Origin: Pseudovirgaria hyperparasitica | Taxonomy: Eukaryota | Direction: 5' to 3' (one strand) | NCBI GenBank assembly: GCA_010093815.1 | Contig: ML996565.1 | Length of the DNA stretch: 64,000 nucleotides | Shown: one piece after another, positions 45,327 through 64,000 of the stretch | How the letters are laid out: every line of letters begins with the position of its first letter | How positions within the stretch are numbered: position 1 is the first letter of the stretch | Program-made: the position numbers and the translations under genes | Notes under the pieces: model-generated | What the model was told of the DNA's origin: nothing | The model's database searches: none | The model's input: only the letters and a program-made list of their open reading frames with translations

Positions 45327-45396
45327 GTCAGTCTGCGGGCTTGGGACGATGACTCAAGCCACGGACTTACGACGATAACTCAAGTCACGGACTTAA
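45319..45396 (+). repeat. Three imperfect 26-bp tandem units spanning the DPB11 stop codon
   Basis: Units begin gacgat at 45319, 45345 and 45371. Confidence 0.8.
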
Positions 45397-45922
45397 GGAT
45401 CCACACTGACGGGGGAAATGTCAGTGTATAGCATGCACTTTTCTTGAGTACACACTGCCCAAGGCCGGCATACATCTACAGAGCCGCAACGCAATGCCGC
45501 CATGGCCCGGGCCCGCGATTCTCGCACCCAAGACTGTCGTGACTTCAACAGGGCCCCCTGCATCGCGCTATTGGAGCATTCCTGGGAACACAAGCATCAT
45601 GGAAAAACCATCCCCGGTCGACCAGCAGGGGATGATGCCAAGAGCCATGGCAGTGTATGGATTCTCAAGAGAGAGCCAAGACACAGAGGAGCGGAAGAGC
45701 CTCTTTGATGAAGGGGAGGGGAGGGGGAAGGGGATGTGTTTGGCTCCGAGTGAGTCATGTGTAGGCAAGGGCCAGCATGATGAGCGAACGAGCAGTTGGG
45801 CAAGACGGCAAGGCGTCCTGACACTGATTCGTGTTCTGCCCTGTTACTTGCTTGCTTGCTCACTCACTCACTCGCGTTACTTACGTGCTTGACGCCCGGC
45901 AATGCACGATCGATGGACATGT

Positions 45923-46029
45923 ATGCAGGTCTCAGAATGCAGGTCTCAGAATGCAGGTCTCGAATGCAGGTCTCAGAATGCAGGTCTCGAATGCAGGTCT
46001 TGGAAGTGCAGGGATCTTGAATGCAGGGT
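45923..46029. repeat. 13-14 bp minisatellite (ATGCAGGTCTC[A]GA)n, degenerating at the 3' end
   Basis: About six near-perfect and two degenerate units. Confidence 0.92.
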
Positions 46030-46378
46030 TTTCCATGCAGGGCACGGGGCTGTAGATTAGATTACGGGCCGTAATGGCCATGCATATGCATGTCGATGGA
46101 TCGATGGATCGATGGTTGGATGGGCATTTTTACGAGAATGGCGCACGAATGGCATGGGGGTTTGGTTGGTGGTGGATCTAGAATTTAGAATCTGGATTCT
46201 GGTTTCTGGGTTGTGCTGAGATGGGTGAGATGGGATGGGATGACGCTCGTGCAGTGCACTTCATACATATAGTCATACATACACACATACGCACATACAT
46301 ACACATACATACATACATACATACATACCTAGCATCCACCCCAAGCCTGACATGCCCCTCCCACCCGAAGACTACACA

Positions 46379-46462
46379 CCCGAACATCCCGAACAACCCG
46401 AACATCCCGAACAACCCGAACATCCCGAACAACCCGAACATCCCGAACAACCCGAACATCCC
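46379..46462. repeat. 18-bp higher-order repeat (CCCGAACAT CCCGAACAA)n
   Basis: Strictly alternating 9-mers. Confidence 0.95.
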
Positions 46463-47809
46463 ACCCGCACCCTCTACCAGACCCGAACCAGACCCCAATC
46501 CCCAACCGCGCCGCCGCGTTCTCGTCTACGGGTCATCAATACTGTTGCCTGTTGTTCTTCTTACTGCATCACGGCGCGTGGTCTCGCACGTGTCTCGTGT
46601 GTTTTGTATATTCCATAATGAAGCGCGTTTACGGGCCTGGCTTGGCTACGCTGTGCATGGGTATGGGTATGGCATGGTATGGGTACGGGTATGGAATGGA
46701 ATGGGGATACGAAACTACGCCATCGTATGCATTCGTGATCTTAGAATAGAATGAGTTTGTAGATGGCTTGAGGATGGATAATTACCGTTACCGAGGCCGT
46801 TTCGGGGAAACGTGCTGGGATCTGATGAGGTATGAGTGTACACACGGGGCAGTAGCACATGGGCAAATCCGAGATATGGCGGATTCGTTCTTCTGCTCTT
46901 TAGCTATCTATCCATCGGACGCAGTGCAAGCAGACGCAGACGATGCAACGGATGGTAAGGTAAGGTCAGCAAGACAACGTAAGCAAAGCCTCGTCTAGCA
47001 ATGCATACATATACCCCTGTCGCCTCTCCTCCTCCCCCTCTCCATGCTGACACGGCCAGGCTACCAGCCTCCTGCGTGCGCCACAGACAGGCAGGGGGTT
47101 CGTTCGTTTGTATTCGCTTGATTGATAGCTTGGCTGTCCTTTATGTGCTTGGGGGGTTGGGTGTCTGGGTCTTCTGGGGTTTGGCGGCTTGGGTTTGGCG
47201 GGTTGGATAGAGATGTTAGTATGAGTATTGGTATGAGTATTGGTATGAGTATTGGCATTGCCATTTCGGGCACGGAGGGCGATGAGGACAGCTGCTCGTA
47301 CTGCGAGACATTTCGGCGCTGTGCTCGTGGAGTAGTGGATCGTGGTGCTTTGTATTGATTCTTCTCTGCAGGAGGAGATGGGTGTGATTGTATGACTGTA
47401 TGACTGTGTGATGGCCCCCTCCCCTTGTCGTTCGTATGGAGCGTGGCTTTATAGGCTGGGAGGAGTATTGGCAGGAGAACGGGGATATTGGGGGGATTCT
47501 GCCGTGTGTGTGAGGCGTGGTCTGGTCTGGATGCTTTCGTGTTGCTGGGATGAGCTTGGTTTTGGTTTGTTTTGTTTGTGTGTCTGGCTGTCTGGCTGTC
47601 TGTCTGGCTGTCTGGCTCTCTGTCTTGAGCCGAGGAGCTGGATGGAGGAGTAGGAGGCCTACGTCCGATGGGATTCGGGATATCGTATTCATGGAAGAGT
47701 ATGGTGTGTTCGTGGACTGTGGTTTCACATATAAAGGAGAGCGCTGCGCGTCTTCTGGTTCTTTTCTCAGGACATTTCCGTCGGGCTCATACCATCCACG
47801 ACTTCCAAC

Positions 47810-49748
47810 ATGAGGTTTCACGTCTTTCTGGTCGTTCTGACGGCCTGCCTGAGAAACGCCTTGGCTCAGGTTGCATTCTCGTTCACCCAGGACGGCATAC
47901 TCGACGCTGCCTCCTCGACAGGGACGGAGTACAATGCGGGTGGCTCGCTGACGCTCAACGGATACGTCGTCACCGTGCCGAAGAACTTCTTCGTCGAGTT
48001 CCCGGCCAGATGGGTCCCGTGGAAGGAGTTTGCCGCCGGCTCCTTTACCGGATTCGAGGTACGTTGTCTACCACCACACCACTCACTCCTCCAAGCCAAA
48101 CTGACATGTCCGTCATGCACAGGTGAATGTGTTTGGCAACATCGTCGACGGCAAGCCCATCGCGGCCATGATGCAGATCGCCCAGAACCTCCTCCACTTC
48201 GGCACCGGCGTCGTCGAATCCGTCGACATCCCCGACGGCTCCCTCAAACTCATCGGCGGCGCCCGTCTGCGCATCAACGACCCCAACGCCGTCTTCTCCA
48301 AGGGCTCCACCGCCAGCCCCCTCTTCCAGGCCGACGACGAAAGCCCCAGCATCCAAGCCTTCTCCGGCTTCCCCATGTGCATCCCCCGCAGCACCTCCGA
48401 CGCCCTCTGCCCCAGCTCCAACCGGCCCGCCGGCCAACGCACCTTCCAGGCCCCCGACCCCCTCGTCATGGCCCCCTTCCTCGCCGGCGACCAGCTCGAG
48501 TTCAGCGGGATCCGCGCCGCCGGCACCTCCGAGATCCTCGCCTACGAAATCGCCGCCGTAAACGTCCAAATCACCACCTCCGGCACCCCGGCCTACCTCC
48601 GCGTCGAAGACGCCATCATCGGCATCGTCGACACCTCCGCCAACACCGAATTCGCAGACTCCCGCTTCATCGGCTACACCTCCGACCCCGCCGTCACCGT
48701 CCTCGTCGAGGCCATCGACATCGACCCCTGCACCGGCGACCGCTCCCTCCGCACCATCGGCTCCATCGCCCCACGCGCCGGCGACGTCCGCAACAAATTC
48801 GAGCTCCGCTCCGAAGGCTCAAACCCTACCCTCAAATACACCCGCGAGTACCGCCTCTCCGCCAACACCGGCACCAAGCAAACCAAAAACGGCCTCTCGG
48901 CAGGCGAATACATCCAGCCCGTCACCGAATGGATCTTCCCCGAACTCGACGTCCCGGGCGCCGAACCCCCCGCCCTCACTTTCGCAAACATGCCCTTCCT
49001 CACAGACGGCTGGTTCCTCGACGGCAAGCCCTACGGCCCGCTCAGCCCCTTTCCCGCCGCAAATCCGCCCCCGCCCGCGAAATCTTGCCCTGCCCCCGCG
49101 CCCTCGAGTCCTTCCTCCCCCACCCCGACCGCGAACGCAGGCCCCGACATCACCGCCCGCGCAGGCACGCTCGTCGTCCTCACCGGCTCCAACGGCGCAA
49201 ACGCAGCCCCAGACCCCGCATTCAGCACATCCTGGCGCCAACTCCCCGGCGGCGGACCAAGCATATCCCTCACATCCCCGACCGCCGCAAAAGCGACCTT
49301 CATCGCGCCCTCCGCGTCCCCGTCCGCGGCCCTAACCTTCCAGCTCACGCTTACATCCACGACAAACACGTCTCTGACATCCACGGACACGGTGTCCGTA
49401 GTTGCGAACCCCGCGCTTGCCGATGCAGTGGTGATAGATAGCTATACGTGGACGAGCAGCCAGAGCGGGACGATCAGCGTGACGGCGCATAGCAATGTGG
49501 TCGATGGGAGTCAGCGGGCGATGACGCTGACGATTGACGGGGCGAGTGCGCGGAGTGTGCTGATGACGGGGTTGGGAGGGGGCAGGTGGAGTTATAGTAG
49601 TCGGAGTGTGAAGCTGCCGGGGACGGTGAGCGTGGCGAGTGATTTGGGGGGCAGTGCGTCGAGGACGACGACGACGGCGCGGAGGAGGAGGAGGGGGGTG
49701 GGGATTGGGATGGGGAAGAGGGGGAGGATTGGTGGTTGGGGGTTTTGA
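47810..49748 (+). CDS. Secreted ~624-aa uncharacterised protein with a PKD/Ig-like (K319L-like) domain; exons 47810-48058, 48123-49748
   Basis: Signal peptide MRFHVFLVVLTACLRNALA and a 64-nt GT-AG intron. PTANAGPD...VVLTGS...SWRQ...ATFIAP...LTFQLT...DTVSV is a PKD-like pattern. Strong codon bias. Confidence 0.88.
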
Positions 49749-50045
49749 GATGGGAGAGGGGGCGTTTCTGTGTGTATATATTTCATTTTTCAGGGGGATT
49801 GAGGGGGGTCCATGTCGTGCTGGTGGTGGGGTTGATATAGTATATACTTCCTTTCTTCATTATTTCCATCTTAGCACTCTCCGTACACTACCTTACCCCT
49901 TTCATCCGTGTAGTCCTAGATGCAAGGAGCAAGATGCTCGAAAAAAAGGGGCAGCCGAGGCACGAGTCCCGGAGATAATAGTATCTGTATGTATTGTGTA
50001 TGCCAGGGAGAAAGATGGACAGGAACAACGACTTTTATGATTGAC

Positions 50046-51656
50046 CTATACTGTGCTTGCTGCCTGGTCTTGTGTAGCTGGCGGTGTACATGCCACCTCG
50101 CTTCCGACCAGTTCGTTTCCTTCCCCACTCACGGCTTCCTTCTCCTTCACATCCGTGTCCCCGTCCGCGTCCGCGACCCATTTCTTCACCCCTGCATCCC
50201 CCGCGTGCGCCGGGTCTTCCAAGCCCAATTTCCCCAAGTCCACGGCCAGCGGATCGCTCTCCGCCGTGACATCCGTTGGCCCGTCCGCGCCACTCGGCGG
50301 CAGCGCCCACTGCGGCAAGGGCGTCTCATAGCTCCACGCGCCCGTCATACAGGCGTATTTCTTCGCATGCAGATAGATGCCCAGCTCGTGCACGCCCGGA
50401 TCGCTGTACAGCGGCGTGTTGCAGCGCTCACAGATCTCGCCCGTCATCTTCTCGGCCTTGCGCTCGTTGTACGCGTCGACCATCTCGTCGTGGTACGCGA
50501 CGGCGTCGGCAACCTCGTCCTTGCCCATCCGGCTCAGCCGCGTGATGATGTCGTCCTCGTCCTCGCTCGAGGTGTGGCCGCGGCCCAGATCGGACCCGAA
50601 CACGCGCTGGTTGCAGTAGATGGGGTCGTTGGAGATCGGGTGGCCGAGGAACTGCAGGTGCACGCGGATCTGGTGCGTGCGGCCCGTGAGCGGCATGCAG
50701 CGCACAATCGAGTAGCCGCGGAAGCGCTTCCAGGCCATGCCCATGGCGCGCGCCTCCTCCTCGCTCTTGACGTCCTGCTCGGCGGCCATGCCGGTGCGGT
50801 GAGGGTAGTAGGCCAGGCGCTTGAAGACGGTGCGGGCGTCCTTGCCGTTTGCTCGCACGCGGTTCAGCCCGAGCTTGGGGTTGATCTGCAGGATGGGCTG
50901 CTCGCACACAATCTCGCCCTCGGGGAACTCGCCAACCACGCGGGCGACGTATTCCTTCTTCACGGTGCGGTCGCGGATCTGCTTGCCGAGGTCTTCGGCG
51001 GCGCGGCTGTGCTTGCCGTAGAACATGATGCCGGATGTCAGCCGGTCGAGGCGGTTGACGGGCATCGGGTAGGGGACGCGTTTCTCGGAGCGCAGGATCT
51101 CGTTGATCGAGTTGTGCAGGTAGCGGCCGGCGGGATGCACGGGGATGCCGGCAGGCTTGTTGATAACCATGATATCGTCATTTTCGTAGACGATGCCGAC
51201 GGGCTGGGCAGACACGGCGGGCTCGTGGCGGTGTTGGGTATGGCTGATCACGTCGCCATTTCTCACAATGTGGTCGGTGGGGACTTTCTTGCCGTTGACT
51301 ACGACGAAGCCAGTCTCAATGGACTTTTTCTAACCTGGTATTACTAGCCGTTCGACTGACTTCTCTCCTGAGCTCTTGATACGCACGTAATACTCCATCG
51401 ACCGGTCTCTGAACTCGCTGGCGAAGATGTCGAGGATCTCTCGTCCGCGCCATCGCTCTTTACAGTTTGTGTTGTATGTGTGGTTGTAGGGCTTGACTCT
51501 CCGCAGGCCGCCTTCAAAGAAATAAGGCTCCGGGTCATTTTCGATGGGACCTGCCTGGTATGGTGTGATTATAACCTCTGGGGGCGGCTCGAATGTTTTT
51601 GGCTTGCCCTGTTTCTTTGACGGACGAGACGGACGCTCAACAGTAGTGAGAGCCAT
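50046..51656 (-). CDS. RIB2: RluA-family tRNA pseudouridine(32) synthase, Pus8(Rib2)/Pus9-like, with no obvious deaminase domain; exons 51656-51387, 51329-50046
   Basis: YFFEGGLRRVKPY, KERWRGR, S4-like region, NKPAGIPVHPAGRY, catalytic NRLDRLTSG and PLTGRTHQIRVHLQFLGHPISNDP. Confidence 0.93.
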
Positions 51657-52247: not shown

Positions 52248-53766
52248 TCAAAACCTGCTCGTGGCCGCTCTTGGTGGCGGTGCATACACCATCCTCTCCG
52301 GCGCCGTATACGCCTGTCCACTCGCTGGACCGGCGCGCATCCGCGTGCTCTCCTCTCTACTCCGTATCTCCCGCTCGTTTTGGACGACTGTACAACAGCA
52401 GCAACAGCAGGCTCGGATAATATCAGACGAGAGCGATCCTTTGAGCTTGTATAAGTGGCGGAGGCGTGTGCGTTGAAACATGGGAAAGAGGCCTGCGGAC
52501 ATTAGCGATTGCTTTGTTTTGAAGGAATTGATGGGAAGAGTGAAACGAAGAAAGGGGTAAATGAAAAGGCGACATACACCATAGCCCACAGCTCGCCGCC
52601 ATACAGCAACACTGCCCATTCACAGCACTCCAGCCCAGCATATCCGTGGGGTCCTTCTTTTCGCTCTTTAGGCTCATTCGATACGCCGTCTTGCCATAGA
52701 CAATACACGGACAAAAGAACCCCGTCATGCATGTTCCAACATCGCTTCCGCACCCACACAGACCATTCATCCACGTCGAGTCCTCGCCAGGCAGGTTGTG
52801 ATTCATGTTCGGATGCACAATTTGACCCGGCTTGTGTATATCGAGCTGGGCACCATTCGGGCCGACGAGGGCGTCAGGGGCGAAGATTGCCTGTGGAGGT
52901 AACGTAGGCGTCTGGGCTTGGTGAGGAGTCCATGTTCGAGCGGGTGAAAGAGGCGTGTCGTGTCGGTTCTTGATGTCGTCGTCGCGGTCCGATTTCATAG
53001 GTCGGGGCGAGAGCGGAGGCGATAATGGCGGAGGCGGCGATTTTGGTGTCTCCGGAGGGTATTGGGCTTGTTGGTGGGGAGTAGTAGTCCGTGACGGATA
53101 TTGATGCATAGGCAAAGCCGGCTGTTGGGTATGTTGATATGGAGTAGTCGTCCGGGAAGGGTGTTGTGGAGTCTGCGTTCGCGATGGGTATTGCTGCTGA
53201 GGCATCTGATGCTGCGGTAACTGTTGCTGCACAGGATGCTGTGCTTGTGGCAGAGCATAAAAGGCAGGATGTGTCTCTGTCGGAGGAGCAAAATTGTACG
53301 GAGAGACACGTCCTCCGCCTCCCATCTCTTTCTGTCGCGCTTCCTCCTGCTGTCGTTGCTCCAGTGTCATCGATCGAGGTAACTGATATCCATGTCGGTC
53401 GATTGGAGAGATAGGGGAGGCGTCAATCGGAGTTATTGGTGAGCCCAGAATGTTCGTCGGCGAGGCAGGTATAACAGACTCCGACGGCTGGAAGGCCTGC
53501 ATTTGATGGAAGGTCGCATTCTGAGCTTCAATCGGTGTCTGGACGTAGGAGAAACGATTCTCGTTGGACGGCCGTCGTGTACCATATGACGGCCTCCTCT
53601 GCTGTCGTGGTGGAGTCGCAGTCGCAGTTGCAGTCCTCTCTTGCTGGTCCACCTGTTGGAGTGGCTGTAGATCGACTGGCATTTGCCATGAGAAGCGTGC
53701 ATGCGATCTCGACTCATCCTGCACTTGCTGCACCCGACTGTTTTGGTAGCCTCCTCGTTGTGCCAT
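52248..53766 (-). CDS. PLAC8-family Cys-rich protein with a long Gln/Pro-rich N-terminus; exons 53766-52578, 52492-52248
   Basis: W.NGLCGC..D.GTC..GFFCPCIVYGKT, QR..LR..YKLKGS..SD...ACCCCCC..VQNEREI. Confidence 0.9.
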
Positions 53767-54662
53767 ATTTCTGCGCGATCACTATTTAGACCTGTTCAAG
53801 CTTCGGAAATATAGGTGGCAAATGGCTCTGGCAGGCTGTTTGTGTATGTGTGTCAAGTCAACAGTATCTGATCACACATCACTCGTGCGACCAAGCCGCA
53901 AACCCCAGTCTCCTGATCTCTTTCCTGTCGCGACAACGTAACGGTAAGCGCGTACGGGGTACCTCGGTAGAAAGATGCGAATCGTAATTAGGACGAGCAC
54001 TCGAGAGCCAAGCGCGCAAGTGTGTTGATGTAGATGACGATGACGGCTTCACGTCGTGCTCGGGAAGAAGGCAAAGGACATGACGGGACTTTTGGCAGTG
54101 CCGTGCGACGACGACGACCCGGACATGTAGGCAAAGCGGCGCAGCATCATTGGCGTCGATGCATATGCATCAATCAGATCACAGGGAAGTGTCGGCACCA
54201 TTAGACGCGTGAGGAGATGGTAAGTGGAGAGGCGCTGGAGAGCTTGCGCAGTGATTTGAGTGTGATAGCGCAACGATCCCACGCCGAGACAAAGGCCCGA
54301 GCTGTGATTGGTGGAGCGGGTGTCTCTATTGTGGCTTCTAGCAACAGTAGTACATACTCGACCATCCCTGGTAGTCTGGTACGGCGCTTAAGACTCTCGT
54401 CAACTGGCCAACAACCGCTCACTTGCATATATATACACTTCGGCCACTTACACAGCCTTTTACCCTGAAACCCACTCCCATGGGTGTCTCGAGCCGTCAT
54501 CACCTGCAACACAGACGGCATGCTGCATACACAGCCTGCGTAGACAATGCATCCTACATACTGAACCCTCTTCCTACGCCACCACACCGTCCATTTATAT
54601 CACTCCATCTCTGCAGCTTCCGCCCTTTCTGTCCATCTCTCTCATCTATCGGGCCGAGTCGA

Positions 54663-57600
54663 CTAGAGCTCGTCTGGATTCATACCAGGGGGAATATGCA
54701 GGCCGGCCGTTGCCATCTCTTGCAGAAACGTCGACGTAGGATCCGACGATGAGAAGCTGGGGGCTACCAACTTCGCTGCATGTATCATCCCTGTGATGGC
54801 TTTGATGTTACCTTTCAGAATATGTCTCTGAAGCCATGTACGATGCGCCTTGGCCAGAGTCTCCGCGTCTTTGTATTTGCCCATAAGCTCGAGTTTGGCC
54901 TGTGGTAAGTTGCTGACCATGTCTCGCAACGTCTTTTCAATACTATCGGCTGTTGCTTTCATCTTGGTCCTTTGCGAGTCGTCTGCCATGTACTCCTGGA
55001 CGCGACCGAGGTTGGCAATGGCGCCCAGCTTCCATTCAGGTGGGTATTTGACTGTGTCTCTACTTGTCAACTTCCTATCTGCAATGATGCCTTTAGACAG
55101 GTCGTCGTTGAATACCTGCAGATCATAGTTAGTGACTGCCGATAGATCAGTATATGGTGATCGTTACCAAGGCCTTTGCTCCATTAAGTGTGTTCGTTAG
55201 CATCACCATGAAGTCTGCATTCGTCTCGGTGCCAATACTAGACATCAACGCCTGCGCCCAATTGGCAGATTGAAACGGTGCGGTCGGCGTAACGTCAAAG
55301 AACACGTCCTGTATGTCTGTACATGTCATTACGTCTTGGAGACTGGTGATAAACTCTCTCAGCCAGTTTCCCTCATAGATATGCTCCGTGTTGAACATTT
55401 CGGCAGCTCCAGGGTCCTTAGGAGGAGCCACCATAGCATGTGCGACCTTATAATCGGTGCAGTCATCCGTGGCTTTGGCAGAAAACCACTCAGTAATGCT
55501 TGGATTGGCTTGTGCACGAATCACCGAAGGCGCGTAATACTTGTCCAAGGTCATCGTTCTAGTAGCAGCAACGTCAGCAGAGCATTTTATCTCGTATTCT
55601 CGACCGCCAGCCCGCTTCCAGTACAGCTCTCGTTTCTCAGGTATGTTGGAACTCAAGTCTCCAGTGGCGTCCATAGGATCCACTTCGATACACGTTGCAC
55701 ATCCCGTAACAGGACATGCATCTGGTGAAGAGGTAGTCGTAACTGTCTGTAACGTCGATGTTCTGCTCGGAAGACTTGCAGATGGCGTAATTATGCTTGT
55801 GAGAAATTCCGAAGACCTGTCAGACGTTGGAATAGTCATCGAGGGTTCACTCGAGGAAGATGTAAGAGGGATGTTGCTCTGAGAGCCAACACTGCTCATT
55901 GGAAAGCTCGACATGATTGACGAGGTGTCGTGGAGTGTAACAGATCTAGACCCTGTTTCTATTGTCGAGGAAGCTAATGATGAGTCTGTCTTTGGAGTTA
56001 TTCGAGGGTCGGTCGAAGAGGTAAGCCTACGACTGATCGGAGACTCTTCTATATTTGAAGCAGTGTCTGACATCAAAGTCATATCTGATTTCGTGATAAC
56101 ATCCCTATCAGACGATACTCTCGTCTGACTAGGACTCAGACCACTCGAGCTTCTAGATAGAGAAGAGCTTTCCGGTATGGTCTTGGTAGGCCTCGATGTC
56201 TTCGAAGTCTGATGTCGCGAACTCGGTTCAAGCACCGTCAAGACTTTCGGTGGCAACGTAGTCGTATGATGCCTCGTTGGTCTTGCGGTTGGACTGGGAG
56301 TCTTCGCCTTTGATTTTGTCTTCGTCTTCTTCGGTCGCGACGCACCTCCGCCTCCGTCTCCGCCTTCCACAGCATTGTGGGGACCAAAGGCGATACAGTT
56401 GGAGGGCAGAGGCCAACTTTGCTGGAAGAGACTTTGCTCCCAGAACGGATCAGCTTCATTTCCTGATGTTGCAGCCTGTATCGAAAGATCTACGCCAACT
56501 TGTGCGTCTACATCGACGCCCAGCGTTTGGTCTCCTCCACATACACCGGCGGTGGAGATCATAGCGGCAAAATCGGCTTCGATGTAGGGCATCTTCATTT
56601 CAAGGGAGACCTCAAAGCCTTTACCGAGTGCTGATGCGCTGAGCTCGACTCCGACTTGTGCATAAACTTCGCTGGACCCTTCAACTTTTGCATCGGTCGT
56701 GAGTGGGATCGGTTTTAGAACAGGGTTCCAGCCGGAGAACTGGTTCTTGTTTGAGTTCACGAGATCTACTTTCACGACGGCAGCATTTGAAAGGTCTAGG
56801 CGTGCTCCGAGTGACGCCTGTGCGGAGCCAGTCCATTCCCCAAGCTCAAATCCGACGTCCTGGGATGTATGTTAGGCCTCTTACTCCGAATAGAGAATGA
56901 AAGAATGAACTAACCACGTCTAAGAAGGCACCAACTTTCAAGATCTTTGCGATCGAGAACCCTTGGATTGGAATGGAGACTAGGTTCTTCTGCCAGCTGT
57001 AAGGTTGGCCCAGGGTCCCTTGCGCGGAGAGCCCGAGTTCAAGGAACGCTGCGACGTCCCTTGGCTGGAGAGTCATCGATGCAGATTGAAGTTTGAACCA
57101 ACTAACATCCACATCGAAGTCTACATCTAGACTTCCTGTTGTACCACAATTCGAACAATCGACTGCAAGATCTATTCCTGATATGGTTGTACTGAACAAT
57201 TGACGGCTAAAATCCGACCTCAGTCCAATCTCCAGGTCTGGTTCATCTCTGATGTCAAGGCGATGATCTTCCAGGGGTTTGTGTCCAACACTGAGAGAAT
57301 AGGTACTGGCTATCTCCTCCCAGCCCCTTTGCTCCGCCGTCATGAAAATCTTGAAGTTCTTGTAGTCGAAATGGACTTCGGACACCACCCAAGGTTGCCT
57401 CTGCTCTTCTGGCGCGCATCTTTTGTCATCAGCAATGATCACAAATTGACGCTCTTTGAAGTCATTAACCCATTCCCAAGCTTTCGTAGCGTAGGCGAAT
57501 GTCGAATTATCGTAGAATGTAAGAGACATGCTCTTGTCGCAGTCCACCGACTTGAGCAAACTCCGAAAACGTTCCATCGATAAAACAAACTCGAATTCCT

Positions 57601-57908
57601 CTGGGAAGTATAGCGTTAGGTTCGCGAAGACAAAGCTCTGGGCACCTGGAGAAGGTCAGAATATATCATGTCTATCCACAATTCGACTGGCCATTAGCGC
57701 CCCAGAAGAAGTTCTCCTGATTGCGTAGATCAAGATCCGTAGTCTCGCCATCATACTTCCTCTTCCTATTGATAGGCAGAGGTGGTCGCCCCGTAATATC
57801 ATGAACAGTGATGGGTTGAAGTTGAACTGGCTCGGTCGCCGAGAGATCAGTAACGAGCGACAAGACGGAAAGCACTAGACTCAGTATGAGCGAACGAGAT
57901 AGCATCAT
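54663..57908 (-). CDS. Secreted modular protein (~1030 aa): signal peptide, conserved beta-rich fungal N-terminal region (DUF7029/DUF7223-like), Ser/Thr-rich linker, KR sites and a distinct C-terminal domain; exons 57908-57692, 57645-56915, 56859-55168, 55115-54663
   Basis: Four collinear minus-strand ORFs join in frame through three introns with branch sites. Hydrophobic N-terminus. Motifs FFWG, FAYATKAWEWVN, DCSNCGTTGSL and NTEHIYE. Confidence 0.85.
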
Positions 57909-59048
57909 GGCAGTATATGATTACACCATTAAATGTCGGCAAGGCGAAGAGGCGATGGGCCTACCTGTATGTATATTGAGCAGAATATCATCGAGTGTAT
58001 AATGATATGAGAAGGCATACGGAAATTCGCATGGCATCAACATGGCTGTTGTACGGATACGCTGGTACCTTGCAGCAAGCATATTTTAAGCCTGCTGCTT
58101 ATGTTGGCGCTCGTATTCTTCTACCGGGCCTGCTACTTCTATTAGCACCCGTATTCATGTTGTTCCTCGTAAGAAGATGCATTTCCCTTCGGAGATTCTT
58201 GCTTGATGCAAGTTATCCAGCTTGAAAGCATATCTCAACCCTACAGGGTATTGCAGGAAAATGATAAGTCAGGTTCACAATCACGAACGACTGTAACCTC
58301 CTTCTCATACGTCGATACGAAGCTCCTTCAAATGGCTGTAGCAGCTGTGGCCTTAGTCTGACAGGGCCATGGTGTGCAATAATGCAAGGCTATCATGCTC
58401 AGCTGAAAATCTGAAACTGCCTATTCGCTAAGGACAAGCAACTACGACGCTGCAGTCAACCCCGCCACCACCATGTATAAATATATCAGAAATGAATTCC
58501 TTGTATTGTGACGGAAAGTCCCGCATGTCAGCGCGGAAAATGTCCCCCTAACTTCAATAGTCTCCATGTCAGGTACGCGAGTGATACTTCTCAGAGCAAA
58601 GTCGAAATGAACTTTGCGTGTAACGGTGATTCGAAGTTGCCCCGTACCTTCGTGATGAAGCCAACGGAGCACTTGGAGCATGTTAGATGTTCCTCAAACA
58701 GTCAAGGTGCACATTCGAGACTAAAGACAGGTGATGCGATGAATCTGTACATCGACGAAATGCAGCGCTTGCGATGGAATTGGCTCGCACAGGGGTATGC
58801 GTTCGGTTTCATAGTATACAGTTGTAATTTGTGAACATGCCTACAGATGCTGCATATTGTAATTGACGCAGGAAATTCTACACTGTCTAAGGGAATTTAA
58901 CGTTGATTTATTCCTGTTTGAAGTTAGCTTGTGCTGCCTCATGAAGACAAGCTACTGACCTGCCCCCGCTCTGGGTCGACTGGACCTGTAATATGACCGT
59001 CAGCAAGCTTTAGGTATGTTCCCTGAGTTCCCTTTTTACCTGACTTTT

Positions 59049-59874
59049 CTATCTTGCTGGTCTTGCGGGATCAACAGTACCTTGTGTTTTCGCAGTCTCA
59101 GGGGAGCCTTCGGACTTCGTGCTTGATTTCCCACCTTCCGTTGGGTCGGTGCTGTGCTTGGTGTCCGTGTTGGATAGACCTTGCTGTTTGCCCGACATAG
59201 ATTTGGACTCTGCAGAATCGTTCTTCGCATCAAGCTTCTTGACAGGTTTCGCACTGGTATCGCCCCTTTCGGTGCCTTTGAGCCTACCAGAGTCTGATTC
59301 ACCCTTCGAGTCCTCGTCTTTGTTGTCACCTTCATCATCCCCGCCATCTTGCTTCTTGTCGTCGCCATCTTGTTTTTCTTCATCTTCCTTTTCCTCGCCA
59401 TCATTCTCGTCCTTGGACTCCTCATCACTTGATTCGTCTTCCCCTTCATCCTCTTTGTCATTGTGATCGGCATGAGAGCCGTGGTCAGCGTGGTGGTCTT
59501 CCTCTTGGCTAAGGATCCAAAATATAGCGGGTACAGTTATACCAATCGATCCGATAGCCCTGTGACGTATATGGTGAGTTTATTCGTCCTATACAGATCA
59601 AACACCGCGCAAAACTGGCGCGGTACAATAAGATTGAAAGGGTCGCCGATGCTATATTGAGCGATGCATGTTGTGGCCGATGGGATTTAACATACCAGGG
59701 AATATCACCACGATATTTACCGAGACCGCCAGATGTGGAAGCATAGCCTCGTCGTGACTGCTGCTGACCGAATCGTTGCCATGACTGCGAATAGGAGCAG
59801 CGAAAAGACTTGGTTGTGCTGGCGAGACCAGATCGCAGAGGCGATCGGAAGGCCATGGATCTAGGGACAGGCAT
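59049..59874 (-). CDS. Small conserved fungal protein, probably mitochondrial: Arg/Ser-rich presequence, one TM helix, acidic region; exons 59874-59696, 59559-59049
   Basis: SRRGYAS cleavage-like motif, DIPW|AIGSIGITVPAIFWIL, and C-terminal SGKQQGLSNTDTKHSTD...ETAK.QGTVDP.RP. Exon 2 is missing from the ORF track. Confidence 0.82.
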
Positions 59875-60536
59875 GATTGGGCTTTGGCAAATTCAATTGG
59901 CGAATTGACGGGCTACCGAAAAGCTTTGCAAGATAGCAATGCGATGGCAAGGCTGTGAATGAGGATGCTGTAGAGGACGTCGGACAAGGTGAAGCTCCCA
60001 CTAATTAGCAGCTTGCTAGGCAAAGCTCGGTTGGTGAGATGATGCACGCGCCACACACGCCACATACGCCACATCTAAACTACACCTAGGTAGGTAATTC
60101 CAATGAGCTTTTGGGGCAGAATCACGTGCTTCTTCTGATGTCAGGAAGCAGTTCAGGCTTCAAATGGAAATTCCAAGTGTCTTCTGCACAGCTTCCAATT
60201 GTCTGCTGCATGAGGACCAGGAGAACCTGGCACGATCTATAATAATACTATATCACTTATTCTAGTCCCCCCCTTGTTCTCCCTTCCAGCGTGGTAGCCT
60301 TGGTAGCACCAAATAACTCATTACACTGCCTGGTCCACTCTCCGTACTTTGTCTGTACCCCGCCGCATTCTTAGGCAACGCGTCTACGACCACCACAGGA
60401 TTGTGTTTCGTGTTTGGCACCTAATGTATTTCCACACTAACATCCGTGAAGGGCAAACACTCGTCTTTTCTCTCTGAACCTCAGACTGCTATCATCTCCG
60501 AACTGCCTATTCCATTATCTCTTTCCATACTCAAAC

Positions 60537-63500
60537 ATGGCGTCCGCTGCCATTCCACTGAACCCTCAAGCAAGCAATGTGGGCCACCTCCTGCCAAAGC
60601 TTTACGATGCAGACTCCGACCTAAGATATATGGCCTTGAACGACCTGTTGCAGATGTTCAACCTCGCTCACCCGAATTTTCTCTCCTCCGACTATAGTAT
60701 CTGTGCGAAGACGGTTGATGGCTTGCTCCACACCCTGAACGATACGAATGGCGAAGTCCAGAACATGGCTATAAAATGCTTAGGGCCTTTTGTAAACAAA
60801 TGTCCAGAATCTATACTATGTCCGTTACTAGACAAAGTCTCGCAGATCGAAACAGGAAACATTGTGGACAGCTCTATACCAGCACTGGCACTACGCGAGA
60901 TTGTTGTCTCTTTTCCACGGCCCTCGCCCGGTGTACCACGGAAGAAACAGGTTCAAGATGCATACGCTGCCATCAGTAAAGCTCTAATTCCTCGACTTGT
61001 CGGCCACAATGTCATGCCTTCTCAAAAGACACCAGCTACATCACCTCCGTCCATGTTACAAGCCGACGTTGACGCAGGCACCGATACCAACGCCATAGAC
61101 GCCCTTACTGAGGTTGCACGTTGTTTTGGTAGCATGCTACATGAAAGAGAAATAGAAGCCCTTCTAAAGACAACTTTCGATATACTACAAGCGGAGAAAG
61201 CGAATTCTGTGTTGAAGAAGAAGAGCGTGGTTGCAATTTCAGCCCTGGCGCCGCACTTCTCCGATCTACTGTTAAGCTCGTTCATTTCGCAGCTAATCGA
61301 AAATCTGGGAGATCCGCATCTCACGCATGGAAAGAAGAGATTGTACATCACAATCCTCGGATCCATGTCACGGTCAATCCCAAAGAAGTTCGGCCCATAT
61401 CTCAAGACGTTAGCACCTTTTGTTCTCAGCGCTTTAAGCCAAGAAGATCTTGATGAGGATATGGGTTCCGATGAGGATGAATCCCGCGATCCTGAGGTAG
61501 ATGAGGTGCGCGAGGCTGCTCTGACAGCTATAGACGGCTTCCTTGCGTCATGCTCTCAGGACATGTACATGTACACACCCGAAGTCGTCTCTGCGGCGAT
61601 TCGGTTCCTCAAATACGATCCTAATGTTCGAGACGATGAAGACGATGATGATGACGAAGACGAGATGGACCCGAACGACGATTTTGAAGACGATGATTTT
61701 GAGGAAGATGCTGGTCAAGATGACGAAGATGACAGCAGTTGGAAAGTGCGCAGATGTGCTGCGAAAGCCCTTCATACGCTTATAGCGACCAGGAGTGGTG
61801 ATCTGATACCTGATGGTACTCTATATCAGTCTGTTGCTCCTTCACTCATAGGCCGATTCAAAGAGAAGGAAGAGAGCGTTCGTCTTGAGGTATTGAGCAG
61901 TCTGTCAACGTTAGTCCGTAATACCGGCGACGGCTCTGCATCTGCATATCACCTGCAAGCAAATGGAGCTCATACAGCTATGGGTCCTCCACCAACCCGT
62001 AAGCGAAGGAGAGGTGGCAGCGATGCAAGTATGGTGGATTCTCAAACCTTGAAATCAGTGTCTGCTGGTTATGACTCTCCCGCTCCAGCTTCGCCACCGA
62101 CTGGGCCTCGGGCAAACCTAGCCTCAATTAGTCCAGACATCGTGCGTGGCTTAGATCCGCTTCTGAAGACTGGTCCCGTTCCTACTAAGCAGGCATCGAT
62201 CATTCTCCTGAGGGACATCGTTCTTACACAGCATGGAGGTCTGAGTGGTTTCCTAGACCAGATTATGGGACCCATTATCGATGCGATCAGAACATCTGGA
62301 ACTCATGCCACCGCAACGTCTGGATTTTCTTCGTCCGTAACAGCTAATAGTCTGAGGATGGAATCTTTACGACTGCTGGGATCCATCGCAGATCTACATT
62401 CGTCCAAAGGCCTACAGCCCTTCCTTGCCAAAGTTGTACCAGTACTTATTGTAGCCGCACAGGACAAATACAGCAAAGTCGCAGTCGAAGCACTCATTAG
62501 TGTCGAACAGGTGATTAAGGCGCTCACCCCTCCCAGAGCAGCCTCTCAGGAGCAACAAAATCGGGTCTATTTGGAACAACTATATGATCTCCTAGCACAT
62601 CGAATCTCTTCGAAAGATGTCGACACAGAGGTTCGCCGAAAGGCTGTTCATGTGCTAGGTCTCTTGATTGGTAGAACCTCGGGTACTCCTGACCTTCTTT
62701 CTCCTAGTAAGAGGCAAGAGGGCTTGGACGCACTCCTTGTCCGTCTCAAAAACGAGCTCACACGGCTGGCAACCGTCAGGGCAGTCGACGTGATCGCAGC
62801 CCATACCCAAAGCACTCATGATCTAAGTTCGCCTTGGGTCAGAGAGGTGACGACAGAGCTAGGCGCGCAGTTACGCAAGTCAAGCAGATCCCTCAGAGGG
62901 GCAAGCCTGTCTGCTTTGAAGACTTTGACCTTATCATCCCCATGCCGAGAGCTTTTGGATGCTCCCACAATTAAGGCAGTAATCGAGATGCTGCTACCGA
63001 TCCTATCAGGCGAAGACCTACATATGCTTGGTCCAGCCCTAGTGATTCTGGCAACATTCATCAAGGACAATGGTAAGAAATATGCCACACCTGACTTTAA
63101 CAGTGCAGTGTGCAATGTTACCACTTTTACGGTGACGGGATTAGCGTTGGAAGCATACCTTGCGCTCGTCCGTGCTATTGGTGAACAGGGCGCTGGCAAA
63201 GATTTGATGCAAAAGTTCCTCAGCATAGGGGTTAGCGGAGCGCCAGACATTACTGGTAGATCTATTGGCACATTGCTGGTATATGGTAGTCAAGTGGACT
63301 TGGGTGTCAAGCTGGAGCAGTTTCCCCAAGAGCTCAAATTTCCAGAAGATCGCCGTCAATGCCTCGCCGTAACTGTGCTCGGAGAAGTCGGGTTCCAAAT
63401 GGGCACAAACTCGCCTCTACCACCAAGCCAATTCATTGAATGTTTTCAAGCGCGTTCTGATAAGCTACCCTTAGCTGCGGCTATCGCAATGGGACGAGCT

Positions 63501-64000
63501 GGCTCGAGCAATATCAAGGTATTCTTGCCTAAGATTCTATCAGCTATGGGACAGCAATCGAGCCCCCAATACCTTCTCATGCATTCTATCAAGGAGATAC
63601 TGCAGCACAAGGAAGCCGAGGCTGAGGTCCTCCCATACGCGCAAACCCTCTGGCAGAATCTTGTTGCAGCTTCACAGGCCGAGGACAATCGCGCTATTGG
63701 TGCCGAGTGTATCGGCAGACTAGCTATCATCGATCCCAAGACATACCTCCCACAACTTCAGGTAGCTTCGACTCCAGCGTTTTCGGACTTGGTACTGACA
63801 TGAGTAGAATATGCTGAGCGACAGAAACGTTATTGTTCGCGGAATGGTGACGGCAGCCCTGCGTTACACGCTGGCAGATACAGATGAAAGCTATGACCAA
63901 TACCTCAGGCCAATCGTCATCGGTATGCTTTCGAAGATGCTGAATGAGAGTGATCTGGAAAATCGCCGTTTGGGACTTACAACTTTCAACTCTGCCATGC
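60537..64000 (+). CDS. CAND1: Cullin-associated NEDD8-dissociated protein 1 (TIP120), HEAT repeats; intron 63762-63807; truncated by the window end
   Basis: D.DLRYMALNDL, D.NGEVQNMAIKCLGP, YDPN, DD.SWKVRRCAAK, RFKEKEESVR, RLKNELTRL and AECIGRL motifs. Confidence 0.97.

What the first reader, a model, noticed from the sequence alone, without database searches (positions are those of the whole stretch)
54663..57908. Candidate fungal polymorphic-toxin/effector precursor: carrier, linker, Kex2 sites, EHxxE domain, C-terminal PDEL
Seen in sequence: signal peptide; RKRK propeptide site; ~450-aa beta-rich N-terminal region; ~230-aa Ser/Thr linker; a CPxxGCxxC cap; two KR dipeptides (55630-55635, 55612-55617); then a ~300-aa domain carrying NTEHIYE and ..MLTNTLNGAK. 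Established: Kex2 cuts after KR, and HNH-like nucleases use (D/E)H..E plus downstream N residues. Inference: a carrier module delivering a cleavable, swappable, possibly nuclease-like toxin domain. Similar (D/E)HxxE tails appear on killer-toxin-like GH18 chitinases, as I recall. The gene sits between housekeeping genes with long empty flanks.
Basis: partly seen in the sequence, partly recalled or inferred. Interest (0 to 1): 0.75.

Follow-up and report, generated by a model that had tools for sequence, protein, structure and literature searches.

The report
Secreted fungal carrier with nuclease-like tail
A fungus that parasitises rust fungi makes one long secretory protein whose conserved front half is joined, through a long flexible linker and a conserved protease cut site, to an undescribed end domain with the hallmarks of a DNA-cutting enzyme, and some relatives carry a different DNA-cutter-like end on the same front half, much as bacteria build swappable toxins.

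Summary
The gene is real. It is annotated as a hypothetical protein of Pseudovirgaria hyperparasitica. Two intron-less contigs cover it as one transcript.

Layout: DUF7029+DUF7223 module, then a ~220-aa Lys-rich and Ser/Thr-rich linker, a Cys cap, a conserved dibasic site, and a ~300-aa domain with no Pfam, PDB-sequence or clear fold match.

The C-domain's invariant residues are EHxYE, then N..K about 66 residues later. In a good AlphaFold model (pLDDT 81) they sit on a strand end and on a strand-helix unit, in the order of a His-Me-finger nuclease. This is an inference, not a demonstrated match.

In all 9 metagenome loci with enough upstream DNA, the C-domain follows the same N-module. No GH18 link was found. 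Two N-module homologues carry a different, NucB-like C-terminus behind a Cys-bracketed dibasic site, and one carries none.

Verdict: a Kex2-processed carrier-plus-effector precursor is well supported. "Swappable" has thin support, and nuclease activity and toxicity are untested. PDEL is not conserved.

The parts
54663..58131 (-). Extent of the gene covered by the two intron-less contigs within the stretch laid. They run further at both ends: a 5' leader resumes at 58189, and the 3' end runs at least 242 nt beyond 54500.
   Evidence: tables 5, 7 and 8
57965..58082 (-). First coding exon of the deposited model (ATG at 58082). It encodes a 39-aa N-terminal extension without a classical signal peptide.
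57875..57964 (-). 90-nt GT..AG interval spliced out in both contigs.
   Evidence: table 5
57837..57908 (-). It is collinear with the leaders of homologues. Only its last 13 codons are in the spliced transcript.
57756..57767 (-). RKRK. The dibasic pro-peptide site aligns with KR in the homologue N-termini.
57646..57691 (-). 46-nt GC..AG intron.
   Evidence: table 5; agrees with P0001
57299..57592 (-). DUF7029 (PF22974).
   Evidence: (E 1.5e-26)
56389..57226 (-). DUF7223 (PF23865), interrupted by the 55-nt intron 56860-56914.
   Evidence: (E 7.2e-83)
55723..56352 (-). Linker of about 210 aa. Its start is Lys-rich (12 K+R in the first 60 aa after the module) and the rest is Ser/Thr-rich.
55690..55716 (-). 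Cys cap CPVTGCATC (C3, C8, C11 of the C-terminal part).
55612..55635 (-). Two KR dipeptides. The second (55612-55617) is the conserved dibasic site. Both lie in the segment with pLDDT below 50, just before the folded domain.
55168..55605 (-). First part of the folded C-terminal domain: a beta-sheet followed by the core with the invariant residues.
55372..55386 (-). EHIYE (E113 H114 Y116 E117), at the end of predicted strand 110-114.
55174..55185 (-). NGAK (N180, K183), in predicted helix 177-186 directly after strand 172-176.
55116..55167 (-). 52-nt GT..AG intron inside the C-terminal domain.
   Evidence: table 5
54666..55115 (-). Last exon: the helical-bundle half of the C-terminal domain, ending in PDEL (54666-54677).

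Best explanation
The locus encodes one expressed secretory-pathway pro-protein of about 1,030-1,060 aa. It belongs to a small, patchily distributed ascomycete family.

Order of parts:
- a leader and a KR pro-peptide;
- the DUF7029+DUF7223 module;
- a Lys-rich then Ser/Thr-rich linker, presumably O-glycosylated;
- a Cys cap;
- an acidic, disordered stretch with a conserved dibasic site;
- a ~300-aa C-terminal domain.

Inferred mechanism. The Golgi protease Kex2 cuts at the dibasic sites and separates an N-terminal carrier from the C-terminal effector. Because conserved cysteines lie on both sides of the cut, the two pieces may stay linked by a disulfide, like a nicked AB toxin.

The effector is most likely a metal-dependent nuclease of the His-Me-finger kind. 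E113-H114 at a strand end would be the metal ligand and general base, and N180 (with K183) on the following helix would be the second metal or phosphate ligand. The loop between them would hold a large helical insert.

The protein would act outside the producer, most plausibly in antagonism against other fungi, since the host organism is a mycoparasite of rusts.

Shown: gene structure, single transcript, domain architecture, conservation of motifs and cut site, and a variable C-terminus on the same carrier. Inferred: Kex2 cleavage, the disulfide tether, nuclease chemistry, and the target.
For: Gene and transcript:
- Two contigs of 3,805 and 3,886 nt join across four intervals with splice-site ends and span both modules.
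- The protein is identical to the deposited P0001 over the query.

Architecture:
- DUF7029 and DUF7223 score far above their cut-offs, and no other Pfam family matches at E<=10.
- The same architecture occurs in Polyplosphaeria fusca, Madurella mycetomatis and 3 unnamed proteins.
- In 9 of 15 metagenome loci the N-module lies upstream on the same strand. The other 6 have at most 1,245 nt upstream.

Cut site:
- 16 of 18 distinct sequences reaching at least 95 residues upstream of EH have KR or RR 72-92 residues before it, with Cys on both sides.
- Residues 1-39, including both KR sites, have pLDDT below 50, and the fold starts at about residue 40.
- The N-terminal KR aligns in all 7 N-terminal sequences compared (this gene and 6 homologue rows, two of them near-identical).

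Catalytic-looking core:
- E113 H114 Y116 E117 C134 L175 N180 K183 are invariant in 15 sequences.
- 26 distinct sequences carry EH[IV]YE, and 25 of them have N..K 57-85 residues later.
- The model (28 sequences, pLDDT 81.4, pTM 0.82) gives strand 110-114, helices 118-161, strand 172-176 and helix 177-186.

Precedent from papers (passages read):
- Vvn uses Glu79-His80 plus Asn127 (PMC5758888).
- The loop between the two strands can carry extra secondary structure, as in Vvn and endonuclease I (PMC5714182).

Weak leads: the atlas lists GmrSD_C (0.80) and AHH (0.79) clusters, both His-Me families.

Sibling warhead:
- P0014 and P0015 have the same carrier and a Cys-x-dibasic-x-Cys loop, followed by a different domain.
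- That domain's nearest atlas clusters are NucA/NucB (features 0.84; structure TM 0.47 by query, 0.60-0.70 by row).
- In P0014 (P0015 ends before this region) it carries RDE and then ENGG 27 residues later. NucB has DRDE and DNRG with E94 to N117.
- Their N-modules nest with the EHxYE carriers P0016 and P0017 at 99/99 support.

Faster divergence of the C-domain: identity is 24-35% there against 42-59% in the N-module for the same 5 proteins (the two figures come from different methods).
Against: - The catalytic half (residues 40-200) was barely tested by these fold searches. I could not see the model's coordinates, so clustering of E113, H114 and N180 in space is unverified.
- The atlas leads at about 0.8 are at a level that shuffled proteins reach a third of the time.
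- The 66-residue gap between H114 and N180 is long for this fold.
- The NucB-like call for the sibling C-terminus has no Pfam or PDB sequence support.
- 'Swapping' rests on 2 related proteins and 1 possibly truncated model, from a search limited to proteins of 581-1852 aa that share words with the query.
- The only transcript form seen removes the canonical start and signal peptide. Secretion therefore rests on a weaker internal hydrophobic stretch or on an unseen isoform.
- No immunity-like neighbour was found. The neighbours are ordinary genes.
- No experiment of any kind bears on cleavage, activity or toxicity.
Confidence: 0.5

Rival explanations
1. It is a secreted or cell-wall-associated mucin-like glycoprotein. 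Its C-terminal domain is not a nuclease and not a toxin. It could be another hydrolase or a binding or structural domain that serves the fungus's own wall, adhesion or matrix. The dibasic sites would be ordinary pro-protein maturation sites.
For: - No nuclease family matches by sequence or fold.
- Half of the C-domain is a long helical bundle whose weak matches are TPR and 14-3-3-like repeats.
- A Massarina homologue keeps the N-module and a long Ser/Thr tail with no C-domain.
- A source names the Madurella homologue 'Proteoglycan 4'.
- The neighbours are ordinary genes.
Against: - A strictly invariant acid-His-x-Tyr-acid plus Asn..Lys set across 26 distinct, otherwise 24-40% identical sequences argues for catalysis.
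- The alternative C-terminus on the same carrier has the NucB-type motif pair and NucA/NucB atlas neighbours.
Confidence: 0.27
2. It is a genuine secreted nuclease, but a housekeeping one. It would scavenge extracellular DNA or RNA for phosphate and nucleotides, or clear extracellular DNA from matrices. The N-module and linker would only anchor it to the producer's wall. It would not be delivered into other cells.
For: - NucB itself is a secreted biofilm-degrading enzyme, not a toxin (PMC5758888; abstract and passages).
- There is no immunity-like partner in the window.
- The C-domain always occurs with one carrier rather than on many delivery systems.
Against: - The distribution is patchy: only 9 related clusters among 1.84 billion representatives.
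- The C-domain diverges about twice as fast as the carrier.
- The C-terminal domain has been replaced within the carrier's tree.
- The cut site is bracketed by cysteines.
These features are more typical of conflict genes than of nutrient enzymes. None is decisive.
Confidence: 0.2
3. The long reading frame is an artefact: two neighbouring genes, or a gene plus a pseudogene, wrongly joined.
Against: - Single contigs bridge all exons with splice-site ends.
- DUF7223 continues seamlessly across an intron.
- The same order of modules recurs in 5 of 8 N-module homologues found and in 9 metagenome loci.
Confidence: 0.02

Closest known systems
Bacterial polymorphic toxins with C-terminal HNH/AHH/NucA-type nuclease domains (Zhang et al. 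2012, PMC3482391; passages read)
   Same: A conserved N-terminal secretion or trafficking part, a processing site, and a C-terminal domain that differs between otherwise related proteins. The warheads look like nucleases. The C-terminus diverges faster than the rest.
   Different: This is a eukaryotic, chromosomal gene with introns. It uses the ER-Golgi route and a Kex2-type site instead of a bacterial secretion system or autoprotease. No adjacent immunity gene or spare cassettes were seen. Only two warhead types have been seen so far. That paper says eukaryotic toxins are mostly not direct counterparts and names plasmid-borne yeast killer toxins as the closest.
Yeast killer toxins processed by Kex2 (K28 preprotoxin; K. 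lactis zymocin) - recalled from general knowledge, plus the passage in PMC3482391
   Same: A secreted precursor is cut at dibasic sites in the Golgi into subunits that stay disulfide-linked. One subunit binds the target wall and the other acts on nucleic-acid metabolism. K28 also ends in an ER-retrieval-like tetrapeptide.
   Different: There is no sequence or domain relation. No GH18 or chitin-binding domain is present. Killer toxins are encoded by viruses or linear plasmids, whereas this is a nuclear gene of filamentous ascomycetes. PDEL here is not conserved.
Vvn / endonuclease I and NucB, secreted His-Me-finger nucleases (PMC5758888 and PMC5714182; passages read)
   Same: An acid residue immediately before the general base at a strand end (Glu79-His80 in Vvn). 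An Asn on the following helix (Asn127 in Vvn, Asn117 in NucB). An elaborate, helix-bearing loop between the two strands. Extracellular location.
   Different: No detectable sequence or whole-model fold similarity. The gap between His and Asn is 66 residues, against 47 in Vvn. There are an extra invariant Tyr and Glu (EHxYE) and a 120-residue helical bundle.
CCTX2, a fungal AB-toxin-like chimerolectin (EMBO J 2026, PMC13324453; passages read)
   Same: A fungal multi-domain toxin with a functional kexin (KR) site between the binding and effector parts and a KDEL-like C-terminal tetrapeptide (HSEL). The fragments stay associated after cutting.
   Different: It is a basidiomycete lectin-based anti-nematode toxin, and its domains are unrelated. 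Its KR site lies on a helix inside a compact fold, not in a disordered linker.
Pfam DUF7029 / DUF7223 proteins
   Same: The N-terminal 400 aa are a clear member.
   Different: Pfam gives no function. I found no paper that mentions either name. The C-terminal domain is not covered by any Pfam model.

Membership tests
Pfam DUF7029 (PF22974) + DUF7223 (PF23865) | Score above the curated gathering cut-off (27 bits each) | tested here: met
   91.2 and 278.1 bits on P0001. Exon translations give 92.8 bits for DUF7029 and 108.3 + 150.7 bits for DUF7223.
His-Me finger (HNH, beta-beta-alpha-metal) nucleases | Conserved His (general base) at the C-terminal end of the first core strand, often preceded by an acid | tested here: met
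   E113-H114 are invariant and lie at the end of predicted strand 110-114.
His-Me finger (HNH, beta-beta-alpha-metal) nucleases | Second strand followed directly by a helix that carries the metal-binding Asn or His | tested here: met
   Strand 172-176 is followed by helix 177-186 with invariant N180 and K183. This is the order of secondary-structure elements only.
His-Me finger (HNH, beta-beta-alpha-metal) nucleases | The two strands pair, and His, acid and Asn converge on one metal site in 3D | not testable with these tools
His-Me finger (HNH, beta-beta-alpha-metal) nucleases | Sequence or fold match to a known member | tested here: inconclusive
His-Me finger (HNH, beta-beta-alpha-metal) nucleases | Metal-dependent nuclease activity | not testable with these tools
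   Needs an enzyme assay.
Polymorphic toxin systems | Related N-terminal regions carrying unrelated C-terminal toxin domains | tested here: inconclusive
   Of 8 N-module homologues, 5 carry the EHxYE type, 2 a NucB-like type and 1 none. The variants nest inside the EHxYE carriers (99/99 and 100/100). The sample is small and limited by length and shared words.
Polymorphic toxin systems | Cognate immunity gene next to the toxin | tested here: not met
   The neighbours are a PLAC8-family gene, a CAND1-like HEAT protein, a pseudouridine synthase and others. No small partner gene was identified. A eukaryotic producer may not need one.
Polymorphic toxin systems | Toxicity of the C-terminal domain to target cells | not testable with these tools
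   Needs expression or killing assays.
Kex2-processed pro-proteins | Accessible, conserved KR/RR site; entry into the secretory pathway | tested here: inconclusive
   The site is conserved in 16 of 18 sequences and lies in a low-pLDDT segment. The signal peptide is canonical only from ATG 57908, which the observed transcript lacks. Cleavage itself is untested.
   No GH18 hit in P0001 or in 16 relatives scanned. All 9 loci with upstream DNA have DUF7029/7223 instead.
NucA/NucB DNases (for the sibling C-terminus of P0014/P0015, not for this gene) | PF14040 match; DRDE and DNRG motif pair | tested here: inconclusive
   No Pfam or PDB-sequence hit. Atlas neighbours are all NucA/NucB (0.84; TM 0.47 by query, 0.60-0.70 by row). 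RDE is followed by ENGG with a spacing of 27, against 23 in NucB.
ER-retention (K/HDEL) proteins | Conserved C-terminal xDEL | tested here: not met
   PDEL occurs only in this species: 0 of 10 homologues with a complete C-terminus have it. That Pro is not an accepted first residue of the motif is recalled, not tested.

The most novel reading that the evidence does not exclude
Filamentous ascomycetes have a chromosomal counterpart of bacterial polymorphic toxins. One secreted carrier (DUF7029+DUF7223 plus a glycosylated linker) is armed with interchangeable His-Me-finger nuclease warheads: a new EHxYE type and a NucB-like type. Kex2 matures it by nicking inside a cysteine-bracketed loop, as in nicked AB toxins. 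A mycoparasite uses it to kill or disarm other fungi.
Probability: 0.22. Interest if true: 0.85.

Novelty: new variant of a known kind. Interest (0 to 1): 0.6.

Why it matters
- It would give two Pfam domains of unknown function a role as a delivery module.
- It would define a new nuclease-like domain that no library covers.
- It would show that the carrier-plus-swappable-warhead design, so far described for bacteria and, at a distance, for plasmid- and virus-borne yeast killer toxins (PMC3482391), also exists as ordinary nuclear genes in filamentous fungi.
- The organism is a hyperparasite of rust fungi, so such a protein is a candidate weapon in fungus-fungus antagonism.
- A homologue exists in Madurella mycetomatis.
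- The claims are directly testable with a nuclease assay and secretome proteomics.

Tried and rejected
Identity of the C-domain
- Pfam on the exons, on P0001 and on 25 family members gave no consistent family. NCBIfam gave nothing.
- PDB sequence searches were run with the single protein, the whole-domain profile and a 92-position core profile. The only hits were a halogenase at E 0.46 and a calcium vector protein at E 1.1, both judged spurious.
- The first AlphaFold model (10 sequences, pLDDT 58.9) was too poor to use, and Foldseek found nothing with it.

Relatives
- The near-length and longer word-based searches with the C-domain found only the protein itself.
- P0011, a 1,932-aa bacterial repeat protein with a secretion-system sorting tail, was dropped as a repeat-driven false hit that lacks the EH motif.
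- No relative was found in bacterial or archaeal genomes with the motif pattern.

N-module
- The N-module profile against PDB hit only the low-complexity linker.

My own 34-nt GT-AG guess for the first coding intron was wrong.

RNA and context
- No RNA holder was listed for the locus. The two holders are of unrecorded kind and come from one sample and one study.
- Complex prediction (N-module with C-domain) was never run. The queue was full and the tool was then declared unavailable.
- No whole genome is held and the genome search could not use my loci. Paralogues, copy number and synteny were therefore not tested.

Literature and earlier findings
- 0 papers mention DUF7029 or DUF7223.
- 0 papers mention Madurella together with 'proteoglycan 4'.
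- Searches on polymorphic toxin + fungi + Kex2, on His-Me finger + fungal + secreted + toxin, on killer toxin + Kex2 + nuclease, and on polymorphic toxin + Ascomycota listed no title or abstract that describes this family; I read passages of only four of the listed papers.
- The search on the organism name listed 12 of 21 papers, and none of the listed titles or abstracts concerns this gene.
- Earlier-findings look-ups returned nothing.
Full report
WHAT IS THERE

On the minus strand between 54663 and about 58100 lie four long coding blocks.

Translated exon by exon, they match Pfam DUF7029 (E 1.5e-26) and DUF7223. The DUF7223 match is split over two exons with contiguous profile positions 2-102 and 103-254, which confirms that junction.

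The protein is in the public record as 'hypothetical protein EJ05DRAFT_506488 [Pseudovirgaria hyperparasitica]' (P0001, 1058 aa). It is 100% identical over the query. On P0001, DUF7029 covers residues 119-216 and DUF7223 covers 241-501. Nothing else matches at E<=10, and no PDB chain matches at E<=1.

TRANSCRIPT EVIDENCE

No run on record as RNA was listed (see Tried and rejected). Two runs of unrecorded kind, from one sample and one study, hold contigs of 3,805 and 3,886 nt. These contigs lie on the locus and skip four intervals:
- 55116-55167 (52 nt, GT..AG on the gene's strand);
- 56860-56914 (55 nt, GT..AG);
- 57646-57691 (46 nt, GC..AG);
- 57875-57964 (90 nt, GT..AG).

The simplest reading is that these contigs come from cDNA.

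They also correct two details:
- The first coding intron is the GC..AG one used by the deposited model, not the 34-nt GT-AG one that I first drew.

The contigs continue into a spliced leader that resumes at 58189. The 5' UTR is therefore long, and the minus-strand sequence there shows upstream ATGs.

The spliced form read from ATG 58082 has a 39-aa extension. Its hydrophobic maximum (9-residue Kyte-Doolittle mean 2.4) lies at residues ~39-48. For the ATG-57908 form the maximum is 2.9 at residues 7-15.

Against the spliced form, the ATG-57908 N-terminus is collinear with the N-termini of P0012, P0013, P0016 and of loci L001, L009 and L013. Each has Met, a hydrophobic leader, about 20-30 residues, KR, and then the conserved start of the module.

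Which start is used remains open. An isoform that retains the interval would turn the upstream frame into a short upstream ORF and restore the canonical leader.

THE FAMILY OF THE C-TERMINAL DOMAIN

An exhaustive HMMER search of 1.84 billion representative proteins, using the 185 residues of the domain encoded by exon 3, found 11 proteins at E<=0.001. These were the protein itself, nine relatives (P0002-P0010, E 2e-18 to 1.5e-8, 184-694 aa) and P0011. I dropped P0011 as a bacterial repeat protein that lacks the motif.

The nine relatives look N-terminally truncated:
- P0002 begins inside DUF7223.
- Others begin in the Ser/Thr linker or at an internal Met just after the Cys cap.

A pattern scan of metagenome contigs gave 25 pattern matches, 15 of them confirmed, as 15 loci. 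With HMMs built from my alignments, 9 loci have the N-module upstream on the same strand: L001, L002, L003, L008, L009, L010, L011, L013 and L015. The other 6 have at most 1,245 nt upstream and cannot show it.

No relative was found in bacterial or archaeal genomes.

None of the 16 relatives scanned with Pfam has a GH18 hit. As far as can be seen, the domain always rides on the DUF7029/7223 module.

THE FAMILY OF THE N-TERMINAL MODULE

A word-based search with residues 100-505, restricted to proteins of 581-1852 aa, found 8 homologues:
- Five have the same full architecture: Polyplosphaeria fusca P0013, Madurella mycetomatis P0016 (named 'Proteoglycan 4' by a source), and P0017, P0018 and P0019.
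- P0012 (Massarina eburnea) has the module and a long Ser/Thr tail but no C-domain.
- P0014 and P0015 have the module, the linker, a Cys, a dibasic site (KR or RR), 6-8 residues and another Cys, followed by a different domain.

That different domain has no Pfam or PDB-sequence hit. Its nearest atlas clusters are all NucA/NucB DNases, with features at 0.84 and structure TM of 0.47 by query and 0.60-0.70 by row. In P0014 (P0015 ends before this region) it carries RDE followed 27 residues later by ENGG. In NucB the essential residues lie in DRDE and DNRG motifs, at Asp93-Glu94 and Asn117 (PMC5758888, passages read).

I built a maximum-likelihood tree of 15 N-modules. Two rows with fewer than 180 filled columns, P0002 and L010, were left out. 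The tree was rooted on the divergent metagenome subgroup. It places P0014 and P0015 with the EHxYE carriers P0016 and P0017 (99/99), and P0012 with P0013, P0018, L001 and L003 (100/100).

So the C-terminus has been replaced once and is absent once on an otherwise conserved carrier. It rests on few sequences from a search with known blind spots.

THE CUT SITE

Among 26 distinct sequences with EH[IV]YE, 18 extend at least 95 residues upstream. Of these, 16 have KR or RR 72-92 residues before the motif. The exceptions are L001, which has a single Arg there, and L010.

Conserved cysteines lie on both sides: the cap, 97-125 residues before the motif, and a Cys 62-82 residues before it.

In the good AlphaFold model, residues 1-39 (the cap, the acidic stretch and both KR sites) have pLDDT below 50. 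The fold begins at about residue 40.

A conserved, exposed dibasic site bracketed by cysteines is the layout of nicked, disulfide-held AB toxins. That comparison is my inference from general knowledge. Neither cleavage nor the disulfide has been shown.

WHAT THE C-DOMAIN LOOKS LIKE

With 10 sequences the model was poor (pLDDT 58.9). With 28 sequences it reached pLDDT 81.4 and pTM 0.82.

The order of elements is:
- five strands (42-114);
- helices 118-130, 134-142 and 155-161;
- strand 172-176;
- helix 177-186;
- a helical bundle, 211-322.

The invariant residues in 15 sequences are E113, H114, Y116, E117, C134, L175, N180 and K183. EH..YE, W120 and C134 are also invariant in a 12-sequence core alignment that includes the divergent subgroup. 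N..K follows EH by 57-85 residues in 25 of 26 distinct sequences. The 26th ends at a contig end.

Thus an acid-His pair sits at the end of a strand, and an Asn (plus a Lys) sits on the helix that directly follows the next strand. [quoted passage not shown] Vvn, for example, uses Glu79-His80 and Asn127, and the loop between the strands can carry extra helices, as in Vvn and endonuclease I (PMC5714182).

Weak atlas leads point the same way: GmrSD_C at 0.80 and AHH at 0.79. Scores of that size are common for shuffled sequences.

I put the nuclease reading at a little over one half.

OTHER FEATURES

- PDEL is unique to this species: 0 of 10 complete homologue C-termini have it.
- The linker starts with a Lys-rich stretch in 9 of the 10 proteins examined (11-25 K+R against 1-3 D+E in the first 60 residues). 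P0012 is the exception, with 7 against 8.
- The C-domain is 24-35% identical to those of P0013 and P0016-P0019, whereas their N-modules are 42-59% identical (different methods, so only the trend counts).
- The neighbours are a PLAC8-family gene, a CAND1-like HEAT-repeat gene, a pseudouridine synthase and others. No partner gene suggests immunity.
- The window holds only this one copy of either module.

COMPARISON AND VERDICT

It works most like a Kex2-matured two-part secreted toxin or effector. Its domain logic is that of bacterial polymorphic toxins.

It is a clear member only of DUF7029/DUF7223. Membership in the His-Me finger superfamily is plausible but unproven. Membership in the GH18 killer-toxin group is rejected.

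I found no paper on these DUFs or on this family. Zhang et al. [quoted passage not shown] A nuclear fungal family of this design would therefore be a new variant of a known kind.

Nuclease activity, cleavage, secretion of the observed isoform and toxicity all remain to be tested.

Noticed in passing
window 57875-57964 and 58132-58188 (minus strand): The assembled transcript splices out the canonical start codon and half of the signal peptide. It also carries a long spliced leader with upstream ATGs. The leader joint (57 nt) has no canonical GT-AG or GC-AG ends in any of its four possible placements. This may reflect alternative 5' forms that decide whether the protein is secreted.
   Followed up: partly
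window 57646-57691 (minus strand): A GC..AG intron of 46 nt in the coding region, supported by both contigs.
   Followed up: yes
P0012 (Massarina eburnea), no window coordinates: This homologue has the full N-module and a ~370-aa Ser/Thr-rich tail but no C-terminal domain. It is either a natural warhead-less form or a truncated gene model.
   Followed up: no
loci L009, L010, L011, L013, L015: A divergent subgroup of the family: the N-module scores only 69-194 bits and the C-domain matches mainly in the 80-residue core. In L008 and L010 the linker is much shorter. L001 lacks the dibasic site and has a single Arg there.
   Followed up: partly
window 56200-56352 and homologues: The linker begins with a conserved Lys-rich (KKTK-like) stretch right after DUF7223 in 9 of the 10 proteins examined. 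This could be a polycationic surface- or nucleic-acid-binding patch.
   Followed up: partly
window 52423-53778 (minus strand): Neighbouring gene with a long Gln/Pro-rich N-terminal region and a C-terminal PLAC8 (Cys-rich) domain (E 5e-10).
   Followed up: no
window 59000-59600: A strongly strand-asymmetric stretch (AT skew -0.48) with overlapping Lys/Arg/Met-rich reading frames on both strands and no Pfam match. It lies between this gene's leader and the CAND1-like gene (60450-63803, plus strand).
   Followed up: no
window 44229-51347: Other ORFs with Pfam matches: BRCT (44229-45326, plus strand), a PKD-like domain (48105-49748, plus strand) and an RNA pseudouridine synthase (50046-51329, minus strand). 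All look like ordinary genes.
   Followed up: no
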